Positions 79 to 10,214 of a stretch of DNA of 10,335 nt are shown piece after piece. The DNA comes from a virus (taxonomy: Duplodnaviria > Heunggongvirae > Uroviricota > Caudoviricetes), in IMG/VR virus record IMGVR_UViG_2609460059_000005. One strand, written 5' to 3'. Numbering within the stretch: position 1 is the stretch's first letter; each line of letters begins with the position of its first letter. The translations under genes and the position numbers were made by a program. Under the pieces are notes generated by a model that worked only from the letters and a program-made list of their open reading frames with translations, did not search any database and was not told the origin of the DNA.

Positions 79-1059
79 TTAGAGATCTAAGCTCTGCTGT
101 GTTGGTTCTGCTCTCAGATTTAAATCTTCACTAAAAATATAATCCATAATTTCTTTCAATTCAGTTGGCATTAGAAAAGATAAAGATTTTCGATTTTCCT
201 CTGAAAAGCTCAATTCCGGTCTTAAATTATATGTATTAGGTAAGTACGGATTAGCAATTTTCTTCGAATATTTATAAGCATATTCAACTGTGTGAGCAGT
301 ACCGCTTTTTATCTTCCACTCCACAGGAATAAGAGATGTGCACAGCGCAGCTTGAATTCTATTGCGTCTTACAAAATTTTCAGCGCTATAAATTTGGTCA
401 GGCAAATATTCAGTGACAATTGCACCTCCGCTTAAAACTATTTGATTGTAGAGATTTTTAGATCCCTTGGGATATTCTACAAAAATCCCGTTACCTAACA
501 CTGCAATTGTAGGTATCCCATAACGAATAGATTCATAATGGCATGATTGGTCAATCCCAGTAGCTAAACCACTTACAGTAACTATATCTTTTTCATACAA
601 CCCAGATACAATTAGTTTAACCAGAAAAATGCCATCATCTGTTGGCTTTCGCGTACCAACGATTGCAATTGATTTCTTATTAAGAATATCTTGATTCCCA
701 TGAACAAAAAGCCAAAAAGGAGGATCACTTATATTCTTTAAATTAGTTGGGAAAGTAGGTTGATCAAAAAAGGTTAGAACAATTCCTTTTTTATTTAATT
801 CTCTCGCTCGTTCTAATCCTTTCGCCCACAACTCTTGTTGAAATTCCTCCCACGCGATATCTTTGGGTAACGCAACCCTTAGATATCCAGCCAAAGCATC
901 AGCTGAACTAGCTTTTAAAAGATTTTTAAACCCTAGTTTGGATTCGTATATTTTACGGAGAGTCCAATAACCAACACCTTTTAAGCAGGTCAACGCAAGA
1001 AATGCTATGATTTCATTTTTCCAAAACTCTCTAATTTCAGTGTAATCTTTATCTTCCAT
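79..1059 (-). CDS. DprA/Smf-like (SLOG/Rossmann-fold) protein, 326 aa, in AT-rich cargo DNA
   Basis: Provided ORF. N-terminal segment LALTCLKGVGYWTLRKIYESKLGF resembles the DprA SAM/HhH-like domain. Core has SIAIVGTRKPT, VSGLATGIDQSCH, TIAVLGNGIFVEYP, RRNRIQAALC and KSGTAHTVEYA, matching the DprA Rossmann-fold pattern from memory. Composition is much more AT-rich than the adjacent sid/delta/primase block. Confidence 0.65.
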   Translation of the reverse strand: MEDKDYTEIREFWKNEIIAFLALTCLKGVGYWTLRKIYESKLGFKNLLKASSADALAGYLRVALPKDIAWEEFQQELWAKGLERARELNKKGIVLTFFDQPTFPTNLKNISDPPFWLFVHGNQDILNKKSIAIVGTRKPTDDGIFLVKLIVSGLYEKDIVTVSGLATGIDQSCHYESIRYGIPTIAVLGNGIFVEYPKGSKNLYNQIVLSGGAIVTEYLPDQIYSAENFVRRNRIQAALCTSLIPVEWKIKSGTAHTVEYAYKYSKKIANPYLPNTYNLRPELSFSEENRKSLSFLMPTELKEIMDYIFSEDLNLRAEPTQQSLDL

Positions 1060-1448
1060 TTTTTTGCCTTATAGATTACAACTCACGCAATACTAATAAC
1101 AAAAATAATCATATTGTAGACATGTTATAAATAACATTTTAGCATCCATTTGTGAAGAGGCATCTTCTTACCTTTCCACGTTCTACAATCGCTAACTTAG
1201 TATGTCTTGTAACTCTTTTTGTCGTTTAACTACCATCCTCTCATACTCCCTGATTCCACTTATGAACCCAATCAATACACAGGCAGCAGTTTTTCTTCTT
1301 TCTGCGGTTGATAGAACGATATATCAGCTTTTGGTGGTACCAAAGATTCTATTCATAAATTTATCTCGCAAGTGATCAAACACACATACTCTTTCAACTT
1401 CTTTACTCAGCGCGCGCAGCCCCGCCCGCCTGCCCGCTTCGCTTAACA

Positions 1449-1580
1449 GAATGGTTTTCATGCACCCCGTAAATCGTCTCAGGAGCCGCCACACAAGGGC
1501 TTTCGCGTCAAAAACGGCGCATGAGACTCATGCGTTTTCATGCACCATAGACATGCACTCATGCGCTCTCAGGCCAGCCA
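1449..1580. repeat. Imperfect ~80-bp duplicated non-coding unit (GTTTTCATGCACC ... CTCAGG ... ACTCATGCG) with an internal palindrome CGCATGAG-A-CTCATGCG
   Basis: GTTTTCATGCACC occurs at about 1453-1465 and 1533-1545; ACTCATGCG at about 1522-1530 and 1556-1564; inverted repeat at 1513-1530. No ORF of 60 aa or more covers this segment. Confidence 0.5.
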
Positions 1581-1592
1581 GGAAAAAGGCGT

Positions 1593-1619
1593 AAAAAATC
1601 CCGGTACAGTACCGGGATT
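1593..1619 (-). terminator. Rho-independent terminator downstream of the Ogr/Delta-like gene
   Basis: Perfect 10-bp inverted repeat ATCCCGGTAC-a-GTACCGGGAT (1598-1618). On the minus strand it is followed by a run of six U residues (plus-strand A-run 1593-1598). It lies about 20 nt after the stop at 1640. Confidence 0.6.
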
Positions 1620-1639: not shown

Positions 1640-1912
1640 TCAGACAGGGATTTGCTGACGGCTTGATAACTTTGATGCAGAGCCATAGCGATTGAGCGTT
1701 TTCTTTTGCTTTTCAGGCTCTTCCGGTTCATCTGATTCCTGTTCATTGCGCCGGGGTTTCATAATTATCGTATCCACACTTTCCAGTGCGGTAAATGTGC
1801 AGGAACATTCAAGATTCTGGCACTGATACCATGAGCGTTTAACCGATGGTGCTTCATAGGCGGAGGTTCTGGCGTGTGCCGTAGTGCCGCATTCGGGACA
1901 TTTAAGTGCCAT
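1640..1912 (-). CDS. Ogr/Delta-family zinc-finger late-gene transcriptional activator (P4 Delta-like, single domain), 90 aa
   Basis: MALKCPECGTTAHARTSAY...YQCQNLECSCTFTALES matches the C-x2-C ... AHARTS ... QCQN-x2-CS-x-TF signature of P2 Ogr / P4 Delta. SD GGAGG lies 7 nt upstream. Start overlaps the stop of the upstream gene (TGATG). Confidence 0.85.
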   Translation of the reverse strand: MALKCPECGTTAHARTSAYEAPSVKRSWYQCQNLECSCTFTALESVDTIIMKPRRNEQESDEPEEPEKQKKTLNRYGSASKLSSRQQIPV

Positions 1913-2673
1913 CAGATACCCTCCGCGGCTCGGTTACGTTTTTGCAGTTCTTCACGTTCCTGCCGGATCTTCATTTTATGAAGGGCCGCCGGAGAGGGAA
2001 GTTTGCGGAAATCAGCAAGGGCAGCATAATCCGGCGCAACACCTGCCAGTTTAAATACCGGGTCCTGTTCCGGCATCGCAGCGTTAGTAAGAGCCGGTTT
2101 GGTGATATGTTTGTGAATAAATTCTTTCAGTACTGTGTCCGGGTCATTAACTGAATTCACCACACCCACAACGGCACTGGCTTCCCGCCCCATTGTGGTT
2201 TTGAGCAGGCTCAGTGTCTGGATTAACGCCTTACCATGCGACTGCATGAAGTCTTCCCAGATTTGCTTTGCGCGAATTTCCACAAGGGTGTTATGTGCGC
2301 TGATATACTGCCCGGCTAATTTCCCGGCCTCCTGCGGTAATAAGGCATTTTCGCTTTCCTGAGCTGCCAGCAGTTCATCAAAATCCTCAAGCGTTTCTCG
2401 TCCCAGCGCAATTTCCGTGCGCAGTTTTTTCATTTCCTTTGAGACTACGCCCTGACTTTCACGAAACAGCGTGCGCCATTCCTCATTCAGCGCGTTAGTC
2501 GTGGCTTCCATTTCAGCGCGGCGCTGGCGGATTGTCGCAATATTATCTGCTGCCGCTTTTTGCTGACGACGTGCTTCAAGCCATGCGTTTCTGGTTGTGT
2601 TCAGGGTTTCCAGTGCCCGCTGCGTTACAGCCGGAAAAGTGGAAAGGCTGGTATTCTCTGCGGTGTTGTTCAT
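1912..2673 (-). CDS. Putative Sid-like capsid size determination (external scaffold) protein, 253 aa
   Basis: Provided ORF with SD AGGAG 6 nt upstream. Alpha-helical, charged, low-complexity composition. Immediately precedes and is translationally coupled to the Ogr/Delta homologue, as in the P4 sid-delta pair, and size is close to P4 Sid. Family assignment rests on context and recalled similarity, not a search. Confidence 0.5.
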   Translation of the reverse strand: MNNTAENTSLSTFPAVTQRALETLNTTRNAWLEARRQQKAAADNIATIRQRRAEMEATTNALNEEWRTLFRESQGVVSKEMKKLRTEIALGRETLEDFDELLAAQESENALLPQEAGKLAGQYISAHNTLVEIRAKQIWEDFMQSHGKALIQTLSLLKTTMGREASAVVGVVNSVNDPDTVLKEFIHKHITKPALTNAAMPEQDPVFKLAGVAPDYAALADFRKLPSPAALHKMKIRQEREELQKRNRAAEGI

Positions 2674-2706
2674 GACTTCTCCTGTCGGGTTGCTTCGTTA
2701 CGTCAA

Positions 2707-2726
2707 TTGTGTCGTGGCTGACACAA
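2707..2726. promoter_or_regulatory. Dyad-symmetric element TTGTGTC-N6-GACACAA upstream of the sid-like gene
   Basis: Perfect 7-bp inverted arms at 2707-2713 and 2720-2726. It contains TGT-N12-ACA, the pattern described for Ogr/Delta-activated late promoters of P2/P4. Its centre is only about 43 nt from the sid ATG, closer than the canonical -55 position. Confidence 0.35.
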
Positions 2727-2848
2727 GCGCACTATCGGTGCTCAGTGTGTGGTGGCTGGCACAACGGGCGTTTTCAGTTATTCAGGCGTGGCTATGAAAG
2801 CCAGCCAGATAAAAATGCCTCGGTTTCAGTCTGCGTTATGTCCCTGCA

Positions 2849-3047
2849 GTGGTGGAACAGGTGAAACATGTGTTACATCATTGTTTTATAAATTATTTAT
2901 ATGCACAGCACAGGTGGAACATCGCGGGTAACAAGGTGGAACAGCGGATCGGCTGGCGTTCCACCTGTTCCACCTCACTATTTCAAAAGGTGGAACAGGC
3001 TCAGCCCTTATAAAATACGGTTGTTCCACCTGTTTCACCTGTTACCC
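2849..3047. repeat. Iteron cluster, putative replication origin, immediately downstream of the primase gene
   Basis: At least 8 copies of GGTGGAACAG / CTGTTCCACC in both orientations (about 2851, 2913, 2935, 2958, 2965, 2989, 3022), plus degenerate copies GGTGAAACA (2860) and TGTTTCACC (3031). The motif resembles the P4 type I iteron TGTTCACC as recalled. No regular spacer structure. Confidence 0.6.
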
Positions 3048-3073
3048 TTAATAAATAAGACTCACGCAAAGCC

Positions 3074-5746
3074 TTAACCCGGCACCTCGCTGTTGAAGAC
3101 ATAGAGTCTGCGGGGATTCATCTCTGGCGGGCGAATGGTTGTCTGTAGCTTGCCATCGGTGGAGGGCAGCAGGTATCCACGATCCGCGCACAAACGCGCC
3201 ACCTTGCGCGGGTCAAATCCCCGGCAGATTTCTTTCCAGCCGGACGGCATGACGTAGAACGTGGTGACGGCTTCCGTGCCCTGCGCGGTACTCCCTTTCT
3301 CCACCCTGCGCCAGCCCACCATATTGCCGGGGCGGTTGCGCTCGTCGTGCCAGTCTGCAAAGCGGCTGTACTGATTCGCGGTAAAGAAACTGCGTACCTG
3401 CTCCAGCGCGGCAATATCTTCCTGATTGGCAGTATGCCCGCGATCTTTCAGCCATGCGTTCAGGCAGACGCGGGTTGCCCGCAGGGCTTCTCCCTCAGGC
3501 CAGCCGGTGATCCCCATACGGGTTGCCAGCTCGCCCGCCATCGCCACCAGTGCAAATCGGTTGACGGCCCGGCCCACCTGATTACCCGCATCTTTCGGGG
3601 TCAGCGCGGCGGTATATTCCTTCATCAGTGACTTTGCCTGTGACGTCAGCCCGTTAAGGTCAGCGGTCAGGGCTTTCAGCCACTCCCGGAACGGCGAACC
3701 GTAGTAGCTGGACGTGGCCCACTCCAGATGTTCCGCCAGTGCCTTGCCGCTGTCGAAGCCGTGCAGCTCCTCAAATACGCCAAATTTCCCGGAATCGCTG
3801 GGGATCTGGATCATCCTGACTTCCATCCCGGCAAAGGTACGCTCACCAGCTTTTGCCGCATGTTCGGTCAGTGACAGCTCGCCGGTTGAAAAGAACAGCA
3901 GCCGCCACTGCTTACGGGTGCGCAGCTCACCGTCCGTACCGGCACGGCCCTTGCCCTGACCGTTTGCCAGCATGTAGGCGATATTGCCTGCCTCGCGTCC
4001 GTCCACCTCCCGGATCTCATCGAGCATCATGGCGGCATCGTTGCGGCGGCTGGCGCATCCCTCCAGCGCGTTGCCGGTTGCCCGCCACGTCTGCCAGTAG
4101 TCAGGCCCGCCGCAGACGGAGGTTGCCGCTTTCATTGTGGTGGTCTTACCGTCCGTCGATTCCCCCTTGAGGTGATAGCCGCCGCCGTCCATACCAACCA
4201 ACCGTAACAGGGGGGCAGCAAACGCCAGACTGACGGCAAACGCCACGCGGGAGTTGCCGGTGCAGTAGCGGGAAACGTGCTCCCGCCATTCCTCCGTTGT
4301 GCCCGACACGCGGAAATCGCGACCCTGCACGGAAGTGGTCTGGAGAATGACACCCTCTGCACCTTCACCGCTGACCTCATCCTGCAGGACGTAAACCTGA
4401 CCATGCCAGCCGGTGCGGCTGACGCAGGTCACGCGGCGTTCCGGTTTACAAAGAGAGATATATTCCATAAGGCGTGCGCGGGCCTCACCGGTGGTGCTGA
4501 TATAGGACAGCCCGTTGACCAGCAGTACCCGGCGCAGCTCCTCACCGCTGCCGCTCAGCATTTCCATCGGCATCGCCCAGCGGCGGCGCTCACCCCACGT
4601 ATCTTCCCACTCCAGCAGTCGCCCGAAGTTACCGCCATCAGCATCGCAGGTGATTGCCGTTACGCGCAGCGGGTTGCATATTTTGACGTTCTGGATTTCC
4701 GTTTCACCGTTGCGCTGTACCTGTTTTTCATACCAGAGATATTCCTGGGTTAGACGGAACCCGTGCGGCAGTTGCGTGCGGCCCTCCCCGCACAGCACCA
4801 GACCGTTGCGAAAGGCTTCACGGGCACGGTTAATACCGTGCTCCCGATGGAAATCATTCCAGTCGGCCTTGATCTCTCCCGGTGGCAGCGTCATCCAGCC
4901 GCCAACGGCTTTTGCCGCCCGTTCAGCAAAAGATCTGCCGGGATTCTCGCCCCCGTCCTGAAAATCGTTATCACCGGCGATGATAATTTTTACCTCAGGC
5001 CAGCGTGCCCGCAGCGCCTGTGCGACGTTGGGCAGGTTGCCAGCAGATATGGCAGCCACTACGCATCCGGCGGTGATCTGGCTCACCGTCAGTGCCGTGG
5101 CGTAACCTTCGGTAATCACCACCTGTACCGGTGGTTCAGACGGTAACGGGCTGAGCGCCACAAACGCGCCTTTCATCGTGCTGCCGGGCAGTATGCTTTT
5201 TTCACCCGTCGGGGCGATAAGCTGCGCACCGGTCACGGCTCCAGCGTTGGTCGTGAGCGGTAGCAGCAGGGAGCCGGCAGGGAAATCCTTACCGCTGATA
5301 TGCTGCACGCTCCCGGTCAGGGGGGCCGGGTATCCGGCGAACCCTTTTCCGGTCAGATAGGGGCTTTCTCCCGTATGGCTCTCTTTCATCAGCGCCGCCA
5401 CGGTAAGGTTCATGTCGCGTTTAGGAGCTTTTTGCCTGGCGGGCTTAACGGGCAATTTCTGCACATCCGGAATATTAAGCACCTGCGCCACCTCCTGCGC
5501 GGCCTTTCTGACACCGTAACCGGTCATGAGCTTAACCAGATCCAGACCATCACCATTGCCGCACTGGCTGCAAATCCACGTCCCGCGCCCGTCAAGGTCA
5601 TCGAGGCGAAAACGATCCTTGCCCCCACATTTCGGGCAGGGACCGTGTCTGCCGTTTTCAGGTACATCAATACGCAGCATCTGCAGAATGACGGGCCATT
5701 TCCCCCGCGCGGCGGCTGAAATCTGCGTAACCGTCTGTGTTGTCAT
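3074..5746 (-). CDS. Primase-helicase (P4 alpha-like): N-terminal Zn-ribbon, Toprim domain, C-terminal Walker A/B NTPase; 890 aa
   Basis: Zn-ribbon CPKCGG...CSQCGNG. Toprim motifs VVITEGYATA and IIIAGDNDFQDGGENPGR. Walker A GESTDGKTT and Walker B-like MMLDEIRE. SD GGGGGA upstream. Start overlaps the stop of the upstream ORF (ATGA). Confidence 0.9.
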   Translation of the reverse strand: MTTQTVTQISAAARGKWPVILQMLRIDVPENGRHGPCPKCGGKDRFRLDDLDGRGTWICSQCGNGDGLDLVKLMTGYGVRKAAQEVAQVLNIPDVQKLPVKPARQKAPKRDMNLTVAALMKESHTGESPYLTGKGFAGYPAPLTGSVQHISGKDFPAGSLLLPLTTNAGAVTGAQLIAPTGEKSILPGSTMKGAFVALSPLPSEPPVQVVITEGYATALTVSQITAGCVVAAISAGNLPNVAQALRARWPEVKIIIAGDNDFQDGGENPGRSFAERAAKAVGGWMTLPPGEIKADWNDFHREHGINRAREAFRNGLVLCGEGRTQLPHGFRLTQEYLWYEKQVQRNGETEIQNVKICNPLRVTAITCDADGGNFGRLLEWEDTWGERRRWAMPMEMLSGSGEELRRVLLVNGLSYISTTGEARARLMEYISLCKPERRVTCVSRTGWHGQVYVLQDEVSGEGAEGVILQTTSVQGRDFRVSGTTEEWREHVSRYCTGNSRVAFAVSLAFAAPLLRLVGMDGGGYHLKGESTDGKTTTMKAATSVCGGPDYWQTWRATGNALEGCASRRNDAAMMLDEIREVDGREAGNIAYMLANGQGKGRAGTDGELRTRKQWRLLFFSTGELSLTEHAAKAGERTFAGMEVRMIQIPSDSGKFGVFEELHGFDSGKALAEHLEWATSSYYGSPFREWLKALTADLNGLTSQAKSLMKEYTAALTPKDAGNQVGRAVNRFALVAMAGELATRMGITGWPEGEALRATRVCLNAWLKDRGHTANQEDIAALEQVRSFFTANQYSRFADWHDERNRPGNMVGWRRVEKGSTAQGTEAVTTFYVMPSGWKEICRGFDPRKVARLCADRGYLLPSTDGKLQTTIRPPEMNPRRLYVFNSEVPG

Positions 5747-6126
5747 ACTTCCCCCTGATGCAGCGCCACACCCGTGCTGCAGAAGTCATCAAAGGCCGCC
5801 GGAAGCGTGCGGTACAGCTCCGCCATCACTTCACAGCCGCGCACAGTCAGTACCGGCGGCGCGGTCAGCAATGATGGTTCCAGCATGTCAGTCAGCAGCG
5901 CCAGCGCCGCCGCTGCTCCCTGTGCTTCGCCATATTCGTTAATCAGTGCGCACTCAATATGCAGGGCAATGGCCATTTCAATACGTTCAACCGTCAGGCT
6001 GTGCGGACCATATTGATCGCAGCCGGTTTCAGTCAGCGCTTTCTGGCGCCATGCCGATGCAATAGCCCGCCGGTAAAGCGCAGTAGTCATTTCTGCCGGA
6101 AAAATAGAAACCTGCGGCTGGTTCAT
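5743..6126 (-). CDS. Hypothetical protein, 127 aa, in the primase operon
   Basis: Provided ORF. Strong SD AGGAGG 7 nt upstream. ATGA start/stop overlaps with both neighbouring genes indicate translational coupling. Confidence 0.6.
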   Translation of the reverse strand: MNQPQVSIFPAEMTTALYRRAIASAWRQKALTETGCDQYGPHSLTVERIEMAIALHIECALINEYGEAQGAAAALALLTDMLEPSLLTAPPVLTVRGCEVMAELYRTLPAAFDDFCSTGVALHQGEV

Positions 6127-6407
6127 TGGGTGCCTCCTTCAATCAGTGCGCAACTGTGTGCAATATCCGTCAAATCTGCCCGCAGGTACTCCATCAGCGC
6201 GGCAATGCCTGGCGCACAGCCTGCATCCAGCGTTCCGCCCTGAGACGGGTATTCAGAAAAGAGAAGCTGGAGCATGTCGCAGGCATTTCTTGCGCGAGTC
6301 AGCTTTCCGAAACCGTCCTCTGACAATCCATAGGCAAAAGCACCAGTATTGTGTTTTTCAGGCAAAGTGTGGCCCTGAGCACTGTTGTGCCCGTTTGAAA
6401 AATTCAT
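6123..6407 (-). CDS. Hypothetical protein, 94 aa, in the primase operon
   Basis: Provided ORF. SD GGAG upstream. Stop overlaps the start of the next gene (ATGA). Confidence 0.55.
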   Translation of the reverse strand: MNFSNGHNSAQGHTLPEKHNTGAFAYGLSEDGFGKLTRARNACDMLQLLFSEYPSQGGTLDAGCAPGIAALMEYLRADLTDIAHSCALIEGGTQ

Positions 6408-6438
6408 CGTGGATTACTCCGTTTTCAGCGGTGTTTTG

Positions 6439-6792
6439 TCAGAGAAACTTTGAATAGTGACTGTCGTCAGGTTCAGCAGAACGCCGTATGCTGCGCTCCC
6501 GCCAACGGGTAAATACCACAGACGGATGTAGTGTCAGAGAGCCACTACCGCCCTTCGGAGCTGGCGAAGGTTTAAAGAGCGGCGCATCAAACAGGCGCGT
6601 ATACCGCTGTTCAAACCATGCCAGAGGGCAGGAAGAAAGCTGGTTGTCGCTGTCATGACGTATCAGCACTTCACAGCTGAATTCAGGATTAACCAGCGCC
6701 ACGGAGGGCGAGGCTTCAATTAATCGGATGATTGTGACGGTCCAGCCACGTTCATGCTGCCAGCGTTCGCCGGGTTGCGGATAATTATGCAT
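6439..6792 (-). CDS. Hypothetical protein, about 117 aa, in the primase operon
   Basis: Start set at the internal Met (MHNYPQPGERW...) because GGAGGTG lies 5-6 nt upstream of it; the first ATG of the provided ORF at 6822 has no SD. Confidence 0.5.
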   Translation of the reverse strand: MHNYPQPGERWQHERGWTVTIIRLIEASPSVALVNPEFSCEVLIRHDSDNQLSSCPLAWFEQRYTRLFDAPLFKPSPAPKGGSGSLTLHPSVVFTRWRERSIRRSAEPDDSHYSKFL

Positions 6793-6961
6793 GTTCACCT
6801 CCGCAGGGAATGCGACCGGCAAAGCTCAGCACGTAGTCCGGGGCCAGTCTGCGCCGCGCTGAGCGCTCGTTATCTGCGGTGATCCTTAACATCACAGGAC
6901 AGGCATTGCGTTGACTGCGGTTGATCGCAGCAAATAACCAGGTACACTTCTTTTTAGCCAT
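6785..6961 (-). CDS. Small basic protein, 58 aa, first gene of the primase operon; possibly Icd/Ash-like
   Basis: Only the C-terminal part of the provided 245-aa ORF is taken as coding: ATG at 6961..6959 is preceded by GAGGAAACGAAG (SD GAGGA). Sequence is MAKKKCTWLFAAINRSQRNACPVMLRITADNERSARRRLAPDYVLSFAGRIPCGGEHA. The Icd/Ash-like label is from memory of small P4-type proteins and is weak. Confidence 0.4.
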   Translation of the reverse strand: MAKKKCTWLFAAINRSQRNACPVMLRITADNERSARRRLAPDYVLSFAGRIPCGGEHA

Positions 6962-7051
6962 CTTCGTTTCCTCATACAGCGGATTGGTCAGAGGCCCGGT
7001 TAGTGTTGCTGCACTGCCGGGCTTCGCCTTTTTCACCCTAGAACACTCAAG

Positions 7052-7130
7052 GTGTGGCCCACTATAAATATTAGGTGTGGCCCACGTCAATGCTTTTCTT
7101 TGTTCTTTTCCCGTGTATACTGTGGCCCAC
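7052..7130. promoter_or_regulatory. Divergent promoter region with three copies of the palindromic operator-like motif (G)TGTGGCCCAC
   Basis: GTGTGGCCCAC at 7052-7062 and 7075-7085, TGTGGCCCAC at 7121-7130. The core GTGG-C-CCAC is dyad-symmetric. Minus-strand sigma70-like promoter: -35 TTGACG (complement of 7085-7090) and -10 TATAGT (complement of about 7061-7066), with copy 2 in the spacer. Plus-strand -10 TATACT at 7115-7120, with copy 3 at the predicted start site. Confidence 0.5.
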
Positions 7131-7151
7131 CAAACATACGGAGATTCAGTA

Positions 7152-7337
7152 ATGGCTACCGGTACAAAGAATGCTAAATCACAAGCCTTAAAGGCACGAG
7201 TGCCACATGACGTAGTTGAAGCGATGGAAATGGTGAAAGAAGAGGACGAAAGTACGTCACAATTCATCATTACATCCATGCAAAGTGAGATCAAACGCCG
7301 CCAGCGCAGGAAAGTTAAGCCAGAGCAAGGAGGCTGA
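7152..7337 (+). CDS. Small putative DNA-binding regulator, 61 aa, ribbon-helix-helix-like
   Basis: Start taken at the internal ATG at 7152 with SD GGAG 8 nt upstream. Sequence MATGTKNAKSQALKARVPHDVVEAMEMVKEEDESTSQFIITSMQSEIKRRQRRK has a strand-helix-helix pattern. The operator repeats lie just upstream, suggesting autoregulation. Confidence 0.5.
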   Translation: MATGTKNAKSQALKARVPHDVVEAMEMVKEEDESTSQFIITSMQSEIKRRQRRKVKPEQGG

Positions 7338-7401
7338 ATAGAGAAGCTAACAGACGTTCTCTCAGGCTCCATGCTAATTTCAGTAAGCGACAATATTTTT
7401 A

Positions 7402-7433
7402 AGCCCACAAACTCAATATGTCGGGCTTTTTTA
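7402..7433 (+). terminator. Putative rho-independent terminator between the convergent small regulator and alpA
   Basis: AGCCC...GGGCT hairpin at 7402-7426 followed by TTTTTTATT. Sits between two convergent genes and may act in both directions. Confidence 0.4.
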
Positions 7434-7664
7434 TTAGTGATTTGCATGCCGTTCACCACGAGAGGCATATATTTGCTCTTGAATCCAGTGATCGACTTCG
7501 CTTTCAACAAATGAAATTGCACGAGTTCCTATTTTTACTGGGCGGGGAAATGTATTATTTGAAAGCTGTTTGTAAAGCCATGCCTTGCTACGCTGAACGC
7601 GTCTTAACACCTCTTTTGCTGAAATAAGAGTCTGATTATCTGAAAGGTTGTTTGCATATTCCAT
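7434..7664 (-). CDS. alpA: AlpA/Vis-family phage transcriptional regulator (excisionase-like HTH), about 76 aa
   Basis: Start set at the internal Met (MEYANNLSDNQ...) with SD GGAG 8 nt upstream. LISAKEVLRRVQRSKAWLYKQLSNNTFPRPVKIGTRAISFVESEVDHWI matches the AlpA-family pattern. Gene lies near a P4-type integrase, as is typical. Confidence 0.75.
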   Translation of the reverse strand: MEYANNLSDNQTLISAKEVLRRVQRSKAWLYKQLSNNTFPRPVKIGTRAISFVESEVDHWIQEQIYASRGERHANH

Positions 7665-7928
7665 CTTGTTACTCCGTGTTCTACTTAAGTTCACGGTGAC
7701 TTTAAACACTGAAAAAAAGTGATTCTAGTGATAATGGAATCTATTAATACAAACGCTGATTCTATTGAAACGTGATAGTTTCTACTGAAAAAAGAAATAA
7801 TGTTCATATGAAAGAACACGAGAAGAGGAAAACGCACAACAAAATAAAATCAATAAAATTCATATAGATAGCATTGCAGCACAAACAAATCATACGTTAG
7901 AAGGTATTATTGCGTTTTATCGATTCAT

Positions 7929-8033: not shown

Positions 8034-8672
8034 TCACTCTCCGTATTTTATAATGTCTTTCCCCAGCTTTATTTTCTTATAGAACGTAGCTTTTTTAACT
8101 CCTTTCAATAGAATCTCATTCTCATTACAAAAAGAAACAATATCATTATATATAACACTATTATCGCTATAATTTCCCTTTCCATGTTTCTTAAGCAACT
8201 CAATTAGTAAGTAAATTAATTTACAACTATAATTATCCTCATCATCTTTTCTGTACTGCCCTCTGCCATTACTCCTTAACTTTTTACCAACTTCATATAA
8301 TTCACTTCCTCCTAGCATCATTAAAATATCGCCCCAATCTTTATTTTTTACTTGTTGTTGCAATGCGTTCTCAATTCTTTCCTTAATTTCAGGAGGTACA
8401 ATATCTTCCCTCTGAAAGATATAAGCGGCAGTTAATACTAAATTCGCCTCCACTTTTTGCGTGGCGGATATGTTTTTATATTCATTAATCAATTGTAGAT
8501 TTCTGGTTATTGCCTTTCTTAACCGAATAACCTCTTTTAATTGAATATCAGTCAATTCATCATTTTCGGTATCATAGTCAAAACCATTCATAGCAAGCGC
8601 CACTTCGTGCGGCGTAATGTACGTTAACCTATTAAAATAAAACAAATTATTATCAGATTGAGTGTTATTCAT
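8034..8672 (-). CDS. Hypothetical protein, 212 aa, AT-rich orphan gene between integrase and alpA
   Basis: Provided ORF. Strong SD GAGGAG 8 nt upstream. Starts 30 nt after the integrase stop. Clearly more AT-rich than its neighbours. No recognisable motifs. Confidence 0.65.
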   Translation of the reverse strand: MNNTQSDNNLFYFNRLTYITPHEVALAMNGFDYDTENDELTDIQLKEVIRLRKAITRNLQLINEYKNISATQKVEANLVLTAAYIFQREDIVPPEIKERIENALQQQVKNKDWGDILMMLGGSELYEVGKKLRSNGRGQYRKDDEDNYSCKLIYLLIELLKKHGKGNYSDNSVIYNDIVSFCNENEILLKGVKKATFYKKIKLGKDIIKYGE

Positions 8673-8702: not shown

Positions 8703-9965
8703 TTATTTTCCATGCACACGCGCAAAATCATATGGTGTGATAGATCCATTCTTGTTAGCATCAATGTAATCAGCCCACCATTGCAGCATTAATTTTCTTT
8801 CTTCAAGATATTCAGAAGTATGCATATATGAACCTTTCACGTTTTTTCGTTCAACGTGACTTAGCTGTCTTTCAATGGCATCATCATTCCATAGTTTCGA
8901 CTCACTTAGCGCACCACGCGCCATAGTTCTAAAACCATGCCCACATACTTCTGTCTTCGTATCATATCCCATTACACGTAAGGCGCTATTTACAGTATTT
9001 TCACTCATAACTTTTTTAGGATCATGATCGCTGGGAAATATAACCTCGCCTTTACCGCTCAAGGCATGTAAACGTTTAAAAATATCAAATGCTTGTTTGC
9101 TAAGCGGAACAATATGTTCAGTTTTCATCTTCATCCCACGCTCAGAGTGTTTTACGCCGGGAATAGGTTTACGAATTCCGGGTATCGTCCACTCGCTTCG
9201 TTCAAAGTTAACCTCACTCCAGCGAGCAAAACGCATCTCACTTGAACGAATAAATGTGAGTAGCGTTAATTCAACGGCAAGCCGTGTCATTAGTCGCCCT
9301 TTATAGCGTGATAGTCTTTCAAGAAACTCAGGGATTCTTTTTGGGGGTAGTGCTGGGTGATGGGTTGCCTTAACGCTTAAAAGCGCTCCAGCCATATCAC
9401 TGGCAGGATTTGATTCAAGAAGGTCATTCTGCACACCGAAACGCATAATTGCGGTTACGCGCTGCATCAGTCGCTGCGCAACATCATGTTTACCTGCCGC
9501 ATCAACAGCTTTGATCGGATTGAGAAGCTGGCTGGTTCTCAACATTCTGGCGTCAATTTGACCTATCGAGGGGAAAATATACTGCTCAAGCGTCAGCAGA
9601 ACGCGACGGCTATGATCTTCGCTCCAAGTTAGGTTACTTGCGTGCCATTGCCTTGCGATAGTTTCAAATAAATATGCCCCCTCAATTTCAGCTTGTGCCC
9701 CCTTTTGCTCAGCTTTGGGGTCAATGCCCTGAGACAACAATTTCTTTGCTGCATCACGCTTACCCCGAGCCTCAGCCAAAGTGATCGTCGGGTATACACC
9801 AAAAGCGAGCCGATCTTCCTTTTTGTCAGATGGGCGGCGATATTTCATGCGCCAATACTTGGAACCTTTTGGGGAGACTTCAAGATACAAGCCGCCTCCA
9901 TCAGCCATTTTATAGGCTTTCTCTTTCGGCTTTGCGGTCTCTATCTGGCGAGCATTGAGTTTCAT
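8703..9965 (-). CDS. int: P4-type tyrosine integrase (site-specific recombinase), about 420 aa
   Basis: Start set at the internal Met (MKLNARQIETAKPKEKAYKMADGGGLYLEV...), a typical P4-family integrase N-terminus. C-terminal catalytic region has HGFRTMARGAL and the Y-containing KGSYMHTSEY. Gene is adjacent to, and co-oriented with, the tRNA-Leu 3' end. Confidence 0.9.
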   Translation of the reverse strand: MKLNARQIETAKPKEKAYKMADGGGLYLEVSPKGSKYWRMKYRRPSDKKEDRLAFGVYPTITLAEARGKRDAAKKLLSQGIDPKAEQKGAQAEIEGAYLFETIARQWHASNLTWSEDHSRRVLLTLEQYIFPSIGQIDARMLRTSQLLNPIKAVDAAGKHDVAQRLMQRVTAIMRFGVQNDLLESNPASDMAGALLSVKATHHPALPPKRIPEFLERLSRYKGRLMTRLAVELTLLTFIRSSEMRFARWSEVNFERSEWTIPGIRKPIPGVKHSERGMKMKTEHIVPLSKQAFDIFKRLHALSGKGEVIFPSDHDPKKVMSENTVNSALRVMGYDTKTEVCGHGFRTMARGALSESKLWNDDAIERQLSHVERKNVKGSYMHTSEYLEERKLMLQWWADYIDANKNGSITPYDFARVHGK

Positions 9966-10019
9966 TTTGGGGGCACAAATCCTGATCGAATTGACATGCC
10001 CCCGATTATGCCCCCAAAA
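9965..10019. promoter_or_regulatory. Inverted repeat TTTTGGGGGCA ... TGCCCCCAAAA flanking the integrase start and 5' leader
   Basis: 11-bp arms at 9965-9975 and 10009-10019, with an extra TGCCCCC at 9997-10003. The left arm abuts the int ATG (9963-9965). No strong SD precedes the int start. Confidence 0.35.
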
Positions 10020-10129
10020 GAGGGTAGACCACAAGAGACCAACAAAGACCATGAAATACGGTAACTTGCTTGTTTTTAAGGATTTTTTCTGGATTTGTAG
10101 ACTTCAGGAAACGTCAAAAGAAGTGTTAA

Positions 10130-10214
10130 TGGTGCCGAAGGCCGGACTCGAACCGGCACGTATTTCTACGGTTGATTTTGAATCAACTGCGTCTACCGAT
10201 TTCGCCACTTCGGC
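10130..10214 (-). tRNA. leuX: tRNA-Leu (anticodon CAA), leuX-type
   Basis: Reverse complement reads GCCGAAGTGGCGAAATCGGTAGACGCAGTTGATTCAAAATCAACCGTAGAAATACGTGCCGGTTCGAGTCCGGCCTTCGGCACCA. It has a 7-bp acceptor stem, a CAA anticodon in a 7-nt loop, a long variable arm, a GGTTCGAGTCC T-arm and a CCA end. Confidence 0.9.

What the first reader, a model, noticed from the sequence alone, without database searches (positions are those of the whole stretch)
1640..5746. Unusual architecture: sid-like and delta genes lie downstream of and co-directional with the primase, separated by the iteron origin, and no psu follows
As I recall canonical P4, the alpha operon and sid-delta-psu are divergently transcribed and psu follows delta. 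Here int, alpA, the primase operon, sid-like and delta are all on one strand, pointing away from the tRNA, and psu is absent. That suggests a distinct satellite lineage or a rearranged derivative, with consequences for how capsid redirection and late-gene control are wired.
Basis: partly seen in the sequence, partly recalled or inferred. Interest (0 to 1): 0.5.

Follow-up and report, generated by a model that had tools for sequence, protein, structure and literature searches.

The report
P4-type satellite with rearranged modules
This is a phage satellite at the leuX tRNA gene that carries bacteriophage P4's capsid-hijacking genes (sid, delta, cos) on a different replication and control backbone, in a gene order unlike P4's; that layout is common in enterobacteria yet is not described in the surveys I could read.

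Summary
On the minus strand, reading away from tRNA-Leu(CAA), lie int, orf212, alpA, an early operon ending in an 890-aa primase, nine GGTGGAACA-type iterons, a 253-aa gene and a 90-aa Ogr/Delta gene. No psu follows.

The 253-aa protein is Sid by profile, sequence and predicted fold: PHROG 6165 at 309 bits, and PDB 7jw1_E at TM 0.71. The P4 reference really has sid-delta-psu divergent from the alpha operon.

The layout is not a one-off rearrangement. The primase-iterons-sid junction is contiguous in 325 of 5426 complete E. coli genomes. It also occurs in Shigella, Citrobacter, Enterobacter, Pseudocitrobacter and Pantoea.

The layout goes with other differences from P4:
- The helicase half of the primase is DUF927 (SaPI-Rep/Cch type).
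- There is one iteron cluster instead of ori plus crr.
- The CI/C4 immunity RNA and isrK are absent.

The block from iterons to cos is collinear with P4. It includes a Psid-type promoter with two TGT-N12-ACA dyads at -90 and -52, exactly as in P4. A defence hotspot follows cos and here holds ShosA.

Close relatives carry sid-psu-delta; the psu-less junction occurs in about 24 E. coli genomes.

Verdict: a real, modular variant of the P4 satellite family, of moderate interest.

The parts
10130..10214 (-). tRNA-Leu(CAA) (leuX). Its 3' end, 10129-10148 (TGGTGCCGAAGGCCGGACTC), is identical to the P4 attP core and is the attL of the element.
   Evidence: ARAGORN, Rfam tRNA 59.4 bits, P4 attP core comparison. 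There is no second copy in the window, so attR lies beyond the left end.
8703..10052 (-). P4-type tyrosine integrase. The true start may be internal; the homologue annotated in RefSeq is 420 aa.
   Evidence: Pfam Arm-DNA-bind_3, Phage_int_M and Phage_integrase. 98-100% identical in L001, L003 and L012.
8034..8672 (-). orf212, a low-GC (about 31%) gene of unknown function that travels with this integrase.
   Evidence: phrog_30524 at 376 bits; no Pfam, NCBIfam or PADLOC match. GC. Present next to the same integrase in L001, L003 and L012.
7434..7709 (-). AlpA/Vis-family regulator or excisionase. The gene callers use the ATG at 7664, giving 76 aa.
   Evidence: Pfam Phage_AlpA 43.9 bits; gene call in L019.
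7152..7337 (+). Small YlcI/YnfO-family gene, the only element gene on the opposite strand. It diverges from the early operon and is a candidate repressor (inference).
   Evidence: RefSeq annotation of the homologue in L001 and L003; gene call in L019; no Pfam hit.
7053..7130 (-). Candidate early promoter: TTGACG at 7085-7090, an 18-nt spacer, TATAGT at 7061-7066. It is flanked and overlapped by three GTGGGCCACA palindromes at 7121-7130, 7076-7085 and 7053-7062.
   Evidence: Read directly from the sequence. Function is inferred.
5743..6961 (-). Early-operon small genes: Icd-like (6785-6961), orf117/127 (6439-6822, weakly like P4 ORF151), orf94 (6123-6407) and DUF5375 (5743-6126, the family of P4 ORF106).
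   Evidence: Pfam DUF5375 53 bits; BLASTP against P4 ORF151 E 2e-5; no similarity of orf94 to P4 epsilon; annotations.
3074..5746 (-). 890-aa primase-helicase. The N-terminal half (Zn ribbon plus TOPRIM) is homologous to P4 alpha at 37% identity. The C-terminal half is DUF927, a SaPI-Rep/SCCmec-Cch-type helicase, not P4's D5_N/DUF5906/Pox_D5.
   Evidence: Pfam; BLASTP against P4 alpha; PDB 8tch_A E 4.6e-15 and 5dgk_A E 2.9e-13; NCBIfam Cch1 60 bits, below its cut-off.
2851..3039 (.). The element's single iteron cluster and presumed origin: 9 copies of GGTGGAACA/GGTGAAACA in both orientations. P4's type I iteron is GGTGAACA.
   Evidence: 0 of 200 shuffles reach the count. P4 ori iterons lie 170-270 bp upstream of sid. 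One cluster per architecture-B locus against two in P4.
2708..2763 (-). Psid-type late promoter region. Two TGT-N12-ACA dyads at 2746-2763 and 2708-2725 lie at -90 and -52 from the sid ATG, 38 bp apart.
   Evidence: The same two positions (within 2 bp) hold dyads in all 17 related loci and in P4 itself. That Ogr/Delta activators bind TGT-N12-ACA is from my own knowledge of the P2/P4 literature.
1912..2673 (-). Sid-like external scaffold (capsid size determination) protein, 253 aa.
1640..1912 (-). Delta, a single-domain Ogr/Delta zinc-finger late-gene activator of 90 aa, translationally coupled to sid.
   Evidence: Pfam Ogr_Delta 59.5 bits. It aligns to each half of the two-domain P4 Delta.
1518..1616 (-). 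Two hairpins, each followed by a T-run, after delta: 1600-1616 with T-run 1593-1598, and 1518-1534. These are the presumed operon terminators.
   Evidence: Sequence read; scan hit for 1534-1518.
1410..1439 (-). cos-like site AAGCGGGCAGGCGGGCGGGGCTGCGCGCGC, which aligns to the P4 cos junction. Similarity among all related elements ends right after GCGCGC, which marks the hotspot border.
   Evidence: Alignment with P4; comparison of loci; megablast matches stop at 1406-1413.
79..1059 (-). Cargo gene in the cos-proximal hotspot: ShosA, the DprA-like component of the ShosTA defence system. GC is about 35%.
   Evidence: PADLOC ShosA 298.7 bits; Pfam DNA_processg_A. Other cargo occupies this position in L001 (ABC-3C system) and L003 (AAA ATPase).

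Best explanation
The window holds most of a roughly 12-13 kb integrative phage satellite of the P4 family, built from exchangeable modules in an order different from P4.

Order from tRNA-Leu:
1. attL, int, orf212
2. alpA
3. A divergent small regulator gene and an early promoter
4. Early operon: icd-like, ORF151-like, orf94, DUF5375, and a TOPRIM-DUF927 primase-helicase
5. A single iteron origin
6. A Psid-type late promoter, then sid, delta and terminators
7. cos
8. A defence hotspot (ShosA), with attR beyond the window

Proposed mechanism; the steps below are inferred:
- The primase-helicase replicates the excised circle from the adjacent iterons.
- When a P2-like helper expresses Ogr, it binds the two dyads upstream of sid and switches on sid-delta. 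Delta from the satellite can do the same.
- Delta then boosts helper late genes and its own operon.
- Sid forms the external cage that forces small capsids.
- The helper terminase cuts the cos site just downstream.
- Psu, a non-essential capsid decoration protein and Rho inhibitor in P4, is simply absent from this sub-variant.

Two further points are inferences. The early and immunity circuit is not P4's: no CI/C4 RNA or isrK was found. It is probably protein-based. And because sid-delta lies downstream of the primase with no recognisable intrinsic terminator between them, early transcription may read through into sid-delta.
For: Shown by tool results:
- Gene content, strands and domains.
- Sid identity by profile, sequence and fold.
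- Single-domain Delta.
- Two TGT-N12-ACA dyads at -90 and -52 in the window, in 17 related loci and in P4.
- An iteron cluster upstream of Psid, as in P4 ori.
- A cos-like site homologous to the P4 cos junction, with the conservation border right after it.
- An attP core identical to P4's.
- Full elements of 12.1, 12.7 and about 13 kb between att repeats in L001, L003 and L012.
- Variable defence cargo after cos.
- The same layout in 11 loci from 6 genera and 325 of 5426 complete E. coli genomes.
- The layout goes with DUF927 in all 11 loci, and with absence of C4/isrK in the three scanned.
- Mosaic identities. The primase C-terminal half is 96-100% identical across genera, while Sid is 57-98% and Delta 60-99% identical. 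The sid/delta/cos DNA is about 89% identical to that of classical-layout elements of E. coli O157.
- No intrinsic-terminator hit between primase and sid.
Against: - No experiment shows that this element is mobilised, or by which helper.
- The cos-like core is 5 nt shorter than the 19-nt P2/P4 cohesive end, so the cut site and the helper are uncertain.
- No epsilon homologue was found, but only pairwise tests were run.
- The window stops inside the hotspot at a contig end, so attR and the completeness of this copy are not seen.
- Read-through from the primase and the repressor role of the YlcI/YnfO-like gene are inferences from sequence only.
- The iteron motif resembles P4's although the presumed DNA-binding half of the replicase is unrelated. 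I cannot explain this.
Confidence: 0.8

Rival explanations
1. It is two unrelated elements in tandem at leuX. One is an int-alpA-primase island of PICI type. The other is the decayed remnant of a classical P4-like satellite that kept only sid, delta, cos and the hotspot.
For: - de Sousa and Rocha explain rare odd orders by neighbouring elements that carry their own integrase (PMC8628076).
- int-alpA-pri is the canonical PICI order (PMC13612085).
- In L001, a partial Arm-DNA-binding integrase fragment lies beyond the cargo.
Against: - No att core copy lies between primase and sid; copies occur only at the two outer ends.
- The 400-bp junction is filled by the iterons and Psid, and it is contiguous in 325 E. 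coli genomes and across genera, with different integrases.
- The sid-delta part would have no replicon of its own.
- The whole unit is 12-13 kb, the size of P4.
Confidence: 0.07
2. It is a recent private rearrangement, with deletion of psu, of an ordinary P4-like prophage. On this view it is a degenerating cryptic element with no function as a satellite.
For: - Only about 8 complete E. coli genomes match 80% or more of the window, and about 24 have the direct sid-delta junction.
- Close relatives do have psu between sid and delta.
Against: - All ORFs are intact.
- The sid stop overlaps the delta start cleanly (TGATG), with no psu remnant.
- The psu-less junction occurs at 99%, 89% and 80% identity levels in E. 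coli, and in Citrobacter, Enterobacter and Pantoea loci.
- The exact Sid variant clusters with 675 member sequences.
- The co-directional layout itself is shared by hundreds of genomes.
Confidence: 0.08
3. The 253-aa protein is functionally a Psu (capsid decoration protein and Rho inhibitor) rather than a size-determination scaffold, as many database records name it. On this view the element lacks sid, not psu.
For: - Pfam Psu scores 34 bits, above its cut-off of 27.4.
- RefSeq names homologues 'phage polarity suppression protein'.
- Sid and Psu are homologous in their C-terminal halves.
Against: - The alignment with Sid is full length and collinear, and the lengths are close (253 against 244 aa). 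Psu aligns only over residues 115-230.
- The Sid PHROG scores 309 bits and the Psu PHROG 41 bits.
- The fold match is TM 0.71 to Sid and 0.38 to Psu.
- Relatives carry this gene together with a separate bona fide psu.
Confidence: 0.05

Closest known systems
Satellite phage P4 (NC_001609)
   Same: - attP core in leuX and a P4-type integrase
- AlpA/Vis-family regulator
- ORF151-like and ORF106/DUF5375 genes upstream of the primase
- Zn-ribbon plus TOPRIM primase half (37% identity)
- Collinear block: iterons, then Psid with two dyads at -90 and -52, then sid, delta and cos, then a defence hotspot
- Size of about 12 kb

   Different: - The sid operon is co-directional with and downstream of the primase, not divergent from the alpha operon.
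- int sits next to alpA, not at the far end beyond the hotspot.
- The helicase half is DUF927, not D5_N/DUF5906/Pox_D5.
- There is one iteron cluster, not ori plus crr.
- There is no CI (C4) RNA or isrK.
- No epsilon was detected.
- No conserved P_LL-type dyad lies upstream of alpA.
- Delta has one domain (90 aa), not two (166 aa).
- There is no psu.

Classical-layout P4-like satellites with a sid-psu-delta operon, for example in E. coli O157 Xuzhou21 (L004) and Ecol_AZ147 at leuX (L006)
   Same: The sid/delta/cos DNA of L004 is about 89% identical to the window's. Delta is 90 aa, the cos-like sequence and the Psid geometry are the same, and L006 uses the same leuX site.
   Different: They keep the P4 layout, the P4-type alpha, and the C4 and isrK RNAs. 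They also carry psu between sid and delta.
Architecture-B relatives with psu, for example E. coli EC20 (L003) and Shigella flexneri (L011). These are probably what SatelliteFinder calls P4-like Type C#var01, lacking epsilon and alpha.
   Same: Same backbone, order, iterons and Psid. The primase is 95-99% identical.
   Different: A 552-bp psu gene lies between sid and delta, and Sid has a different 9-aa C-terminal tail. The link to Type C#var01 is my inference from PMC8628076 and PMC10085698 and was not checked.
Gram-negative PICIs and SaPI replication modules
   Same: The front-end order int-alpA-primase, with the origin just downstream of the replicase, is the PICI layout (PMC10085698 and PMC13612085). 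The DUF927 half matches a solved 'pathogenicity island protein' and the SCCmec Cch helicase.
   Different: The hijack module is P4's (Sid, Delta, P2-type cos), not a small terminase, Rpp or capsid-morphogenesis module. None of those was found in the window.
Sid-less DUF927 element at tRNA-Arg in E. coli 3385 (L021)
   Same: It has an Icd-like gene, a DUF5375-like gene, a DUF927 primase (54-74% identical), iterons immediately downstream, and then a co-directional Ogr/Delta-like gene and a hotspot.
   Different: It has no sid. Its iterons are GGTAACA, its Delta is only 25% identical, and its int lies beyond the hotspot on the other strand, as in P4.

Membership tests
P4-like satellites (seven-marker definition of de Sousa and Rocha / SatelliteFinder) | Tyrosine integrase | tested here: met
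   Pfam Arm-DNA-bind_3, Phage_int_M and Phage_integrase; attP core identical to P4's.
P4-like satellites (seven-marker definition of de Sousa and Rocha / SatelliteFinder) | AlpA/Vis-type regulator | tested here: met
   Pfam Phage_AlpA 43.9 bits against a cut-off of 21.
P4-like satellites (seven-marker definition of de Sousa and Rocha / SatelliteFinder) | Sid | tested here: met
   phrog_6165 309 bits; PDB 7jw1_E E 1.7e-10; fold TM 0.71/0.76.
P4-like satellites (seven-marker definition of de Sousa and Rocha / SatelliteFinder) | Delta (Ogr/Delta zinc finger) | tested here: met
   Pfam Ogr_Delta 59.5 bits against a cut-off of 26.3.
P4-like satellites (seven-marker definition of de Sousa and Rocha / SatelliteFinder) | Psu | tested here: not met
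   There is no Psu-family ORF in the window. Only the C-terminal half of Sid resembles Psu. Relatives have psu.
P4-like satellites (seven-marker definition of de Sousa and Rocha / SatelliteFinder) | Epsilon (Ash), which derepresses the helper prophage | tested here: inconclusive
   tblastn and BLASTP with P4 epsilon find nothing. However, the same test also failed on the classical-layout loci, so it is insensitive. No profile search was run.
P4-like satellites (seven-marker definition of de Sousa and Rocha / SatelliteFinder) | Alpha: P4-type primase-helicase (Zn ribbon, TOPRIM, D5_N, SF3 helicase, Pox_D5) | tested here: not met
   Only the N-terminal 320 aa are homologous (37% identity). The C-terminal 570 aa are DUF927, with no D5_N, DUF5906 or Pox_D5.
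P4-like satellites (seven-marker definition of de Sousa and Rocha / SatelliteFinder) | Conserved order int, psu/delta/sid, alpA, epsilon, alpha, with the sid operon divergent from the alpha operon | tested here: not met
   The order here is int, alpA, primase, sid, delta, all on one strand.
P4 regulatory and packaging hallmarks (from P4 biology, not part of the marker set) | Psid late promoter with two TGT-N12-ACA activator sites | tested here: met
   Dyads at -90 and -52 in the window, as in P4 and, within 2 bp, in 17 related loci.
P4 regulatory and packaging hallmarks (from P4 biology, not part of the marker set) | P2/P4-type cos site next to the variable hotspot | tested here: inconclusive
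   The region is homologous and the conservation border falls right after it. The core is 5 nt shorter than GGCGAGGCGGGGAAAGCAC, and cleavage has not been tested.
P4 regulatory and packaging hallmarks (from P4 biology, not part of the marker set) | CI immunity RNA (Rfam C4, RF01695) and the isrK leader RNA | tested here: not met
   Both are found in P4, L004 and L006. Neither is found in the window, L003 or L012. In the window nothing appears even at E up to 0.1.
PICI (phage-inducible chromosomal islands, Gram-negative type) | int, alpA, primase-replicase order with the origin after the replicase | tested here: met
   The definition is from PMC10085698.
PICI (phage-inducible chromosomal islands, Gram-negative type) | Packaging-redirection module (small terminase, Rpp or capsid-morphogenesis gene) | tested here: not met
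   No such Pfam or PHROG hit in any ORF. The position is occupied by sid-delta.
PICI (phage-inducible chromosomal islands, Gram-negative type) | Induction by a helper-phage-encoded inducer, acting through AlpA in the Gram-negative type | not testable with these tools
   Needs experiments.

The most novel reading that the evidence does not exclude
Architecture B may be a satellite lineage that is unrecognised in the surveys I read and yet abundant (about 6% of complete E. coli genomes, and several genera). It bridges the two best-known enterobacterial satellite families. The chassis is PICI-like: int-alpA-primase order, a SaPI-Rep/Cch-type DUF927 helicase, a single origin, and probably protein-based immunity instead of the CI RNA. 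That chassis carries the portable P4 hijack cassette, from Psid through sid, optional psu and delta to cos and the hotspot. psu-less members such as this one show only 4 of the 7 SatelliteFinder markers, so current censuses would miss them. The cassette would then be a swappable unit that moves between chassis types.
Probability: 0.45. Interest if true: 0.55.

Novelty: new variant of a known kind. Interest (0 to 1): 0.4.

Why it matters
Published surveys describe the organisation of P4-like satellites as highly conserved and delimit elements between int and alpha (PMC8628076, PMC10085698). This matters in four ways:
- A common alternative layout means censuses, element boundaries and hotspot definitions based on "between psu and int" miss or mis-delimit part of the family. 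That layout has a different replicase, a single origin and no CI RNA, and it places the defence hotspot between cos and attR.
- It shows that the hijack cassette, from Psid to cos, is a portable module that recombines onto different chassis. This parallels the shared front ends of PICIs and cfPICIs.
- It gives a natural test of which P4 features are dispensable for piracy: Psu, epsilon, P_LL, crr and the RNA immunity.
- Practically, the cos-proximal cargo (here ShosA) is a place to look for defence systems.

Tried and rejected
- tblastn of the 253-aa protein against 50,697 phage records found nothing at E 1e-3, although P4 is in that collection. Pairwise, profile and fold comparisons were needed instead.
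- NCBIfam has no model for Sid, not even for P4 Sid.
- I looked for a P_LL-like Ogr/Delta site upstream of alpA. The dyad at 7801-7818 is AT-rich and is lost in L003 and L010. The total dyad count in the window is not above chance (4 found, 2.3 expected). I rejected it.
- I looked for attR in the window and found none. Fetching the source contig did not help, because the contig ends 78 nt past shosA.
- I considered that the 253-aa protein might be a Sid-Psu fusion made by the deletion of psu. Only the last 13 residues differ from the EC20 Sid, and they do not resemble the Psu C-terminus. I rejected it.
- The supplementary tables of PMC8628076, which could have shown how such elements were classified, are not held.
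- A literature search for DUF927 together with satellite or P4-like terms found no paper holding both.
- A search for a citable open-access source for the TGT-N12-ACA consensus failed. That point rests on my own knowledge plus the P4 comparison.
- Only 12 loci came back from the species-representative genome scan, so cross-genus frequencies are rough.

Full report
**What is in the window.** All element genes but one lie on the minus strand and read away from tRNA-Leu(CAA) at 10130-10214.

| Feature | Coordinates | Evidence |
|---|---|---|
| P4-type tyrosine integrase | 8703-10052 | |
| orf212, low GC, unknown function | 8034-8672 | |
| AlpA-family regulator | 7434-7709 | |
| YlcI/YnfO-like gene, plus strand | 7152-7337 | |
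| Icd-like gene | 6785-6961 | |
| orf117/127 | 6439-6822 | |
| orf94 | 6123-6407 | |
| DUF5375 gene | 5743-6126 | |
| 890-aa primase | 3074-5746 | |
| 400-bp spacer | 2674-3073 | |
| 253-aa gene | 1912-2673 | |
| 90-aa Ogr/Delta gene, start overlapping the previous stop | 1640-1912 | |

- The 3' end of the tRNA carries the 20-nt P4 attP core unchanged.
- After delta come two hairpins with T-runs and then a cos-like sequence at 1410-1439.
- To the left of about 1406 the GC content drops to about 35%. The only gene there is ShosA, a DprA-like defence component.
- The window is the end of contig JFFL01000051.1, so the far end of the element is not available.

**Checking the observation.**
- The spacer contains nine GGTGGAACA-type repeats in both orientations. 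About two are expected by chance, and none of 200 shuffles reached the observed count.
- No psu-like ORF follows delta or lies anywhere else in the window.
- The P4 reference record (NC_001609) has gop and beta, then cII and int, attP, crr, and the alpha operon on one strand. Its sid, delta and psu lie on the other strand, divergent around ori.

**Is the 253-aa protein Sid?** Yes, by three independent kinds of evidence.
- Profile: it matches PHROG 6165 over its full length at 309 bits. P4 Sid scores 387 bits on that family. On PHROG 6366, the family of P4 Psu, it scores only 41 bits.
- Sequence: against all PDB sequences the best hit is the Sid chain of the P4 procapsid, 7jw1_E. The E-value is 1.7e-10 over residues 11-246 against 4-240. 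Psu (3rx6) aligns only with residues 115-230.
- Fold: an AlphaFold model from 20 homologues has mean pLDDT 86.8. It is a long helical hairpin plus a C-terminal helical domain. Its best PDB match is 7jw1_E at TM 0.71/0.76, with Psu second at 0.38/0.50.
- The Pfam "Psu" hit (34 bits) and the database names "polarity suppression protein" and "septation initiation protein" reflect the known homology between the C-terminal halves of Sid and Psu.

**How the layout relates to P4.** The block from the iterons to cos is collinear with P4.
- In P4 the type I ori iterons (GGTGAACA) lie 170-270 bp upstream of sid. In the window the iterons lie 177-372 bp upstream of sid.
- Between the iterons and sid, P4 has two TGT-N12-ACA dyads at -90 and -52 from the ATG. 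The window has two at exactly -90 and -52 (2746-2763 and 2708-2725). So, within 2 bp, do all 17 related loci I fetched, in both layouts. To my knowledge this dyad is the binding site of Ogr/Delta activators.
- Downstream of the operon, the window aligns with the P4 cos junction. The sequence AAGCGGGCAGGCGGGCGGGGCTGCGCGCGC aligns with P4's AAGCGGGCG|GGCGAGGCGGGGAAAGCAC|CGCGCGC.
- In every related element, similarity stops right after GCGCGC, where unrelated cargo begins. This is the cos-proximal defence hotspot described by Rousset et al. (PMC9122126).
- The difference lies on the other side of the iterons. P4 has the divergent early/late promoters and the alpha operon there. This element has the 3' end of its primase gene there, and int and alpA sit at the head of the same strand.
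- This is not a simple inversion of a P4 segment. A simple inversion would put int downstream of the primase.

**It is a lineage, not an accident.** I compared the window with 17 related loci from E. coli genomes and from species-representative genomes. I call the classical layout A and the window's layout B.
- *Layout A* runs int, hotspot, then delta, psu and sid on the opposite strand, then vis through DUF5375 to alpha. It appears in seven loci, always with a P4-type alpha C-terminal half.
- *Layout B* is co-directional. It appears in the window and ten loci from E. coli, Shigella, Citrobacter, Enterobacter, Pseudocitrobacter and Pantoea. It always goes with the TOPRIM-DUF927 primase.
- P4 alpha has D5_N, DUF5906 and Pox_D5 after the TOPRIM domain. 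The window protein has DUF927 instead. Its best solved relatives are a staphylococcal-type "pathogenicity island protein" (8tch_A) and the SCCmec Cch helicase.
- The ten layout-B copies with the GGTGGAACA motif have one iteron cluster each. The eleventh (L016) has no such cluster and was not examined further. P4 has two clusters.
- Rfam finds the CI immunity RNA (C4 family) and isrK in P4 and in two layout-A loci. It finds neither in the window or in two other layout-B loci.
- In their place, layout B has a small divergent YlcI/YnfO-like gene. It also has a sigma-70-like promoter overlapped by three GTGGGCCACA palindromes. I take this to be a protein-based switch, which is an inference.
- The junction from primase through the iterons to sid is contiguous in 325 of 5426 complete E. 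coli genomes. For comparison, P4-type sid-delta-psu DNA is in 867.
- att repeats delimit 12.1, 12.7 and about 13 kb in three full layout-B copies, with no att copy inside. This argues against two elements in tandem.

**Mosaic structure.**
- Across layout-B loci the DUF927 half of the primase is 96-100% identical. Sid ranges from 57 to 98% and Delta from 60 to 99%, and the integrases belong to different types.
- The window's sid/delta/cos DNA is about 89% identical to that of layout-A elements in E. coli O157. That similarity ends 48 nt inside sid.
- The hijack cassette and the chassis therefore have separate histories.
- A further relative at tRNA-Arg (L021) has a DUF927 primase, downstream iterons of another type and a co-directional Ogr/Delta-like gene, but no sid. 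This suggests that the order "replicase, origin, late activator" is native to this chassis.

**The missing psu.**
- The commonest layout-B relatives have sid-psu-delta. Compared with them, the window lacks 576 bp and has 40 nt of its own there, a net difference of 536 bp that includes psu. Its Sid has a different 13-residue tail, and no psu remnant is left.
- The direct sid-delta junction occurs in about 24 complete E. coli genomes at three levels of divergence. It also occurs in five of the ten other layout-B loci I fetched.
- Some loci instead have a third, shorter Sid-like paralogue after delta.
- psu is therefore an optional part of the cassette.

**Comparison with the literature.**
- de Sousa and Rocha report a very conserved order. 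The listed variants are a psu/delta swap, alpA after alpha, or a fully reversed order next to a foreign integrase. None of these is the order found here (PMC8628076).
- Their Type C#var01, which lacks epsilon and alpha, probably corresponds to layout B with psu.
- A psu-less copy would show only four of the seven markers, below the detection threshold. This is my inference and is untested.
- Recent work still contrasts "int-psu-delta-sid" P4-like elements with "int-alpA-pri" PICIs (PMC13612085). This element combines the two.
- I found no paper that mentions DUF927 together with P4-like satellites.

**Mechanism and verdict.**
- Shown: the anatomy, the homologies, the conserved promoter geometry, the distribution and the mosaicism.
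- Inferred: Ogr/Delta activation of sid-delta, small-capsid formation, cos cleavage by a P2-like terminase, replication from the iterons, possible read-through from the primase (no terminator hit between them), and the protein repressor.
- It is a new variant of a known kind rather than a new kind. It is of moderate interest because it is common, has been overlooked in the surveys I could read, and shows the P4 hijack cassette as a portable module.

Noticed in passing
window 79-1059 (-): The DprA-like cargo gene is ShosA of the ShosTA defence system (PADLOC 298.7 bits). It sits in the cos-proximal hotspot. Its partner ShosT is not in the window; a further gene starts just beyond shosA at the contig end.
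   Followed up: partly
window 7053-7337: A sigma-70-like promoter (TTGACG, 18-nt spacer, TATAGT) is overlapped by three GTGGGCCACA palindromes. It lies between a divergent YlcI/YnfO-like gene and the Icd-like first gene of the early operon. This looks like a protein repressor and operator switch, in the place where P4 has its CI RNA.
   Followed up: partly
window 8034-8672 (-): orf212 is a 31%-GC gene between int and alpA (phrog_30524, no Pfam or PADLOC match). It is conserved together with this integrase type in L001, L003 and L012, so it may be a second accessory slot or part of the integration module.
   Followed up: no
L021 (E. coli 3385, NZ_CP029420.1 1611168-1629247): A sid-less relative at tRNA-Arg. 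It has an Icd-like gene, a DUF927 primase (54-74% identical), GGTAACA iterons, a divergent Ogr/Delta-like gene, sce7725/sce7726 cargo (sce7726 is the family of P4 cII), and int on the other strand. A truncated P2-family major capsid gene lies just upstream, next to an IS1. About 465 E. coli genomes gave weak primase matches, which may be to this type.
   Followed up: partly
L010 6503-7090, L012 11264-11851, L015 11757-12317, L016 11742-12380: A third, shorter Sid-like paralogue of about 196 aa lies after delta in some elements of both layouts. It scores 68.8 bits on phrog_6165 (the Sid family) and gives no Psu-family (phrog_6366) hit.
   Followed up: partly
window 1410-1439 and the cos regions of L003-L006, L013-L016 and L018: The cos-like core of this clade (GGCGGGCGGGGCTGC) is 5 nt shorter than the 19-nt P2/P4 cohesive end. 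The Pantoea and Mixta loci have a 186-like version (GGCGTGGCGGGGGTACGAG). This may point to different helper terminase specificities.
   Followed up: partly
window 2851-3039 compared with P4 9310-9413: The iteron motif (GGTGGAACA) differs from P4's type I iteron (GGTGAACA) by one inserted base. Yet the C-terminal half of the replicase, presumed to bind the origin, is unrelated between the two. This is unexplained.
   Followed up: no
window 6785-7522 (-): The mechanical 245-aa ORF spanning the regulatory region is almost certainly spurious. It overlaps the Icd-like gene, the promoter region and the antisense strand of the YlcI/YnfO-like gene. It is not called in any annotated homologue.
   Followed up: yes
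L001 2177-2404 and L004 4049-6545: Integrase fragments and IS elements lie next to the hotspots of related elements. This is consistent with repeated integration and decay at these tRNA sites.
   Followed up: no
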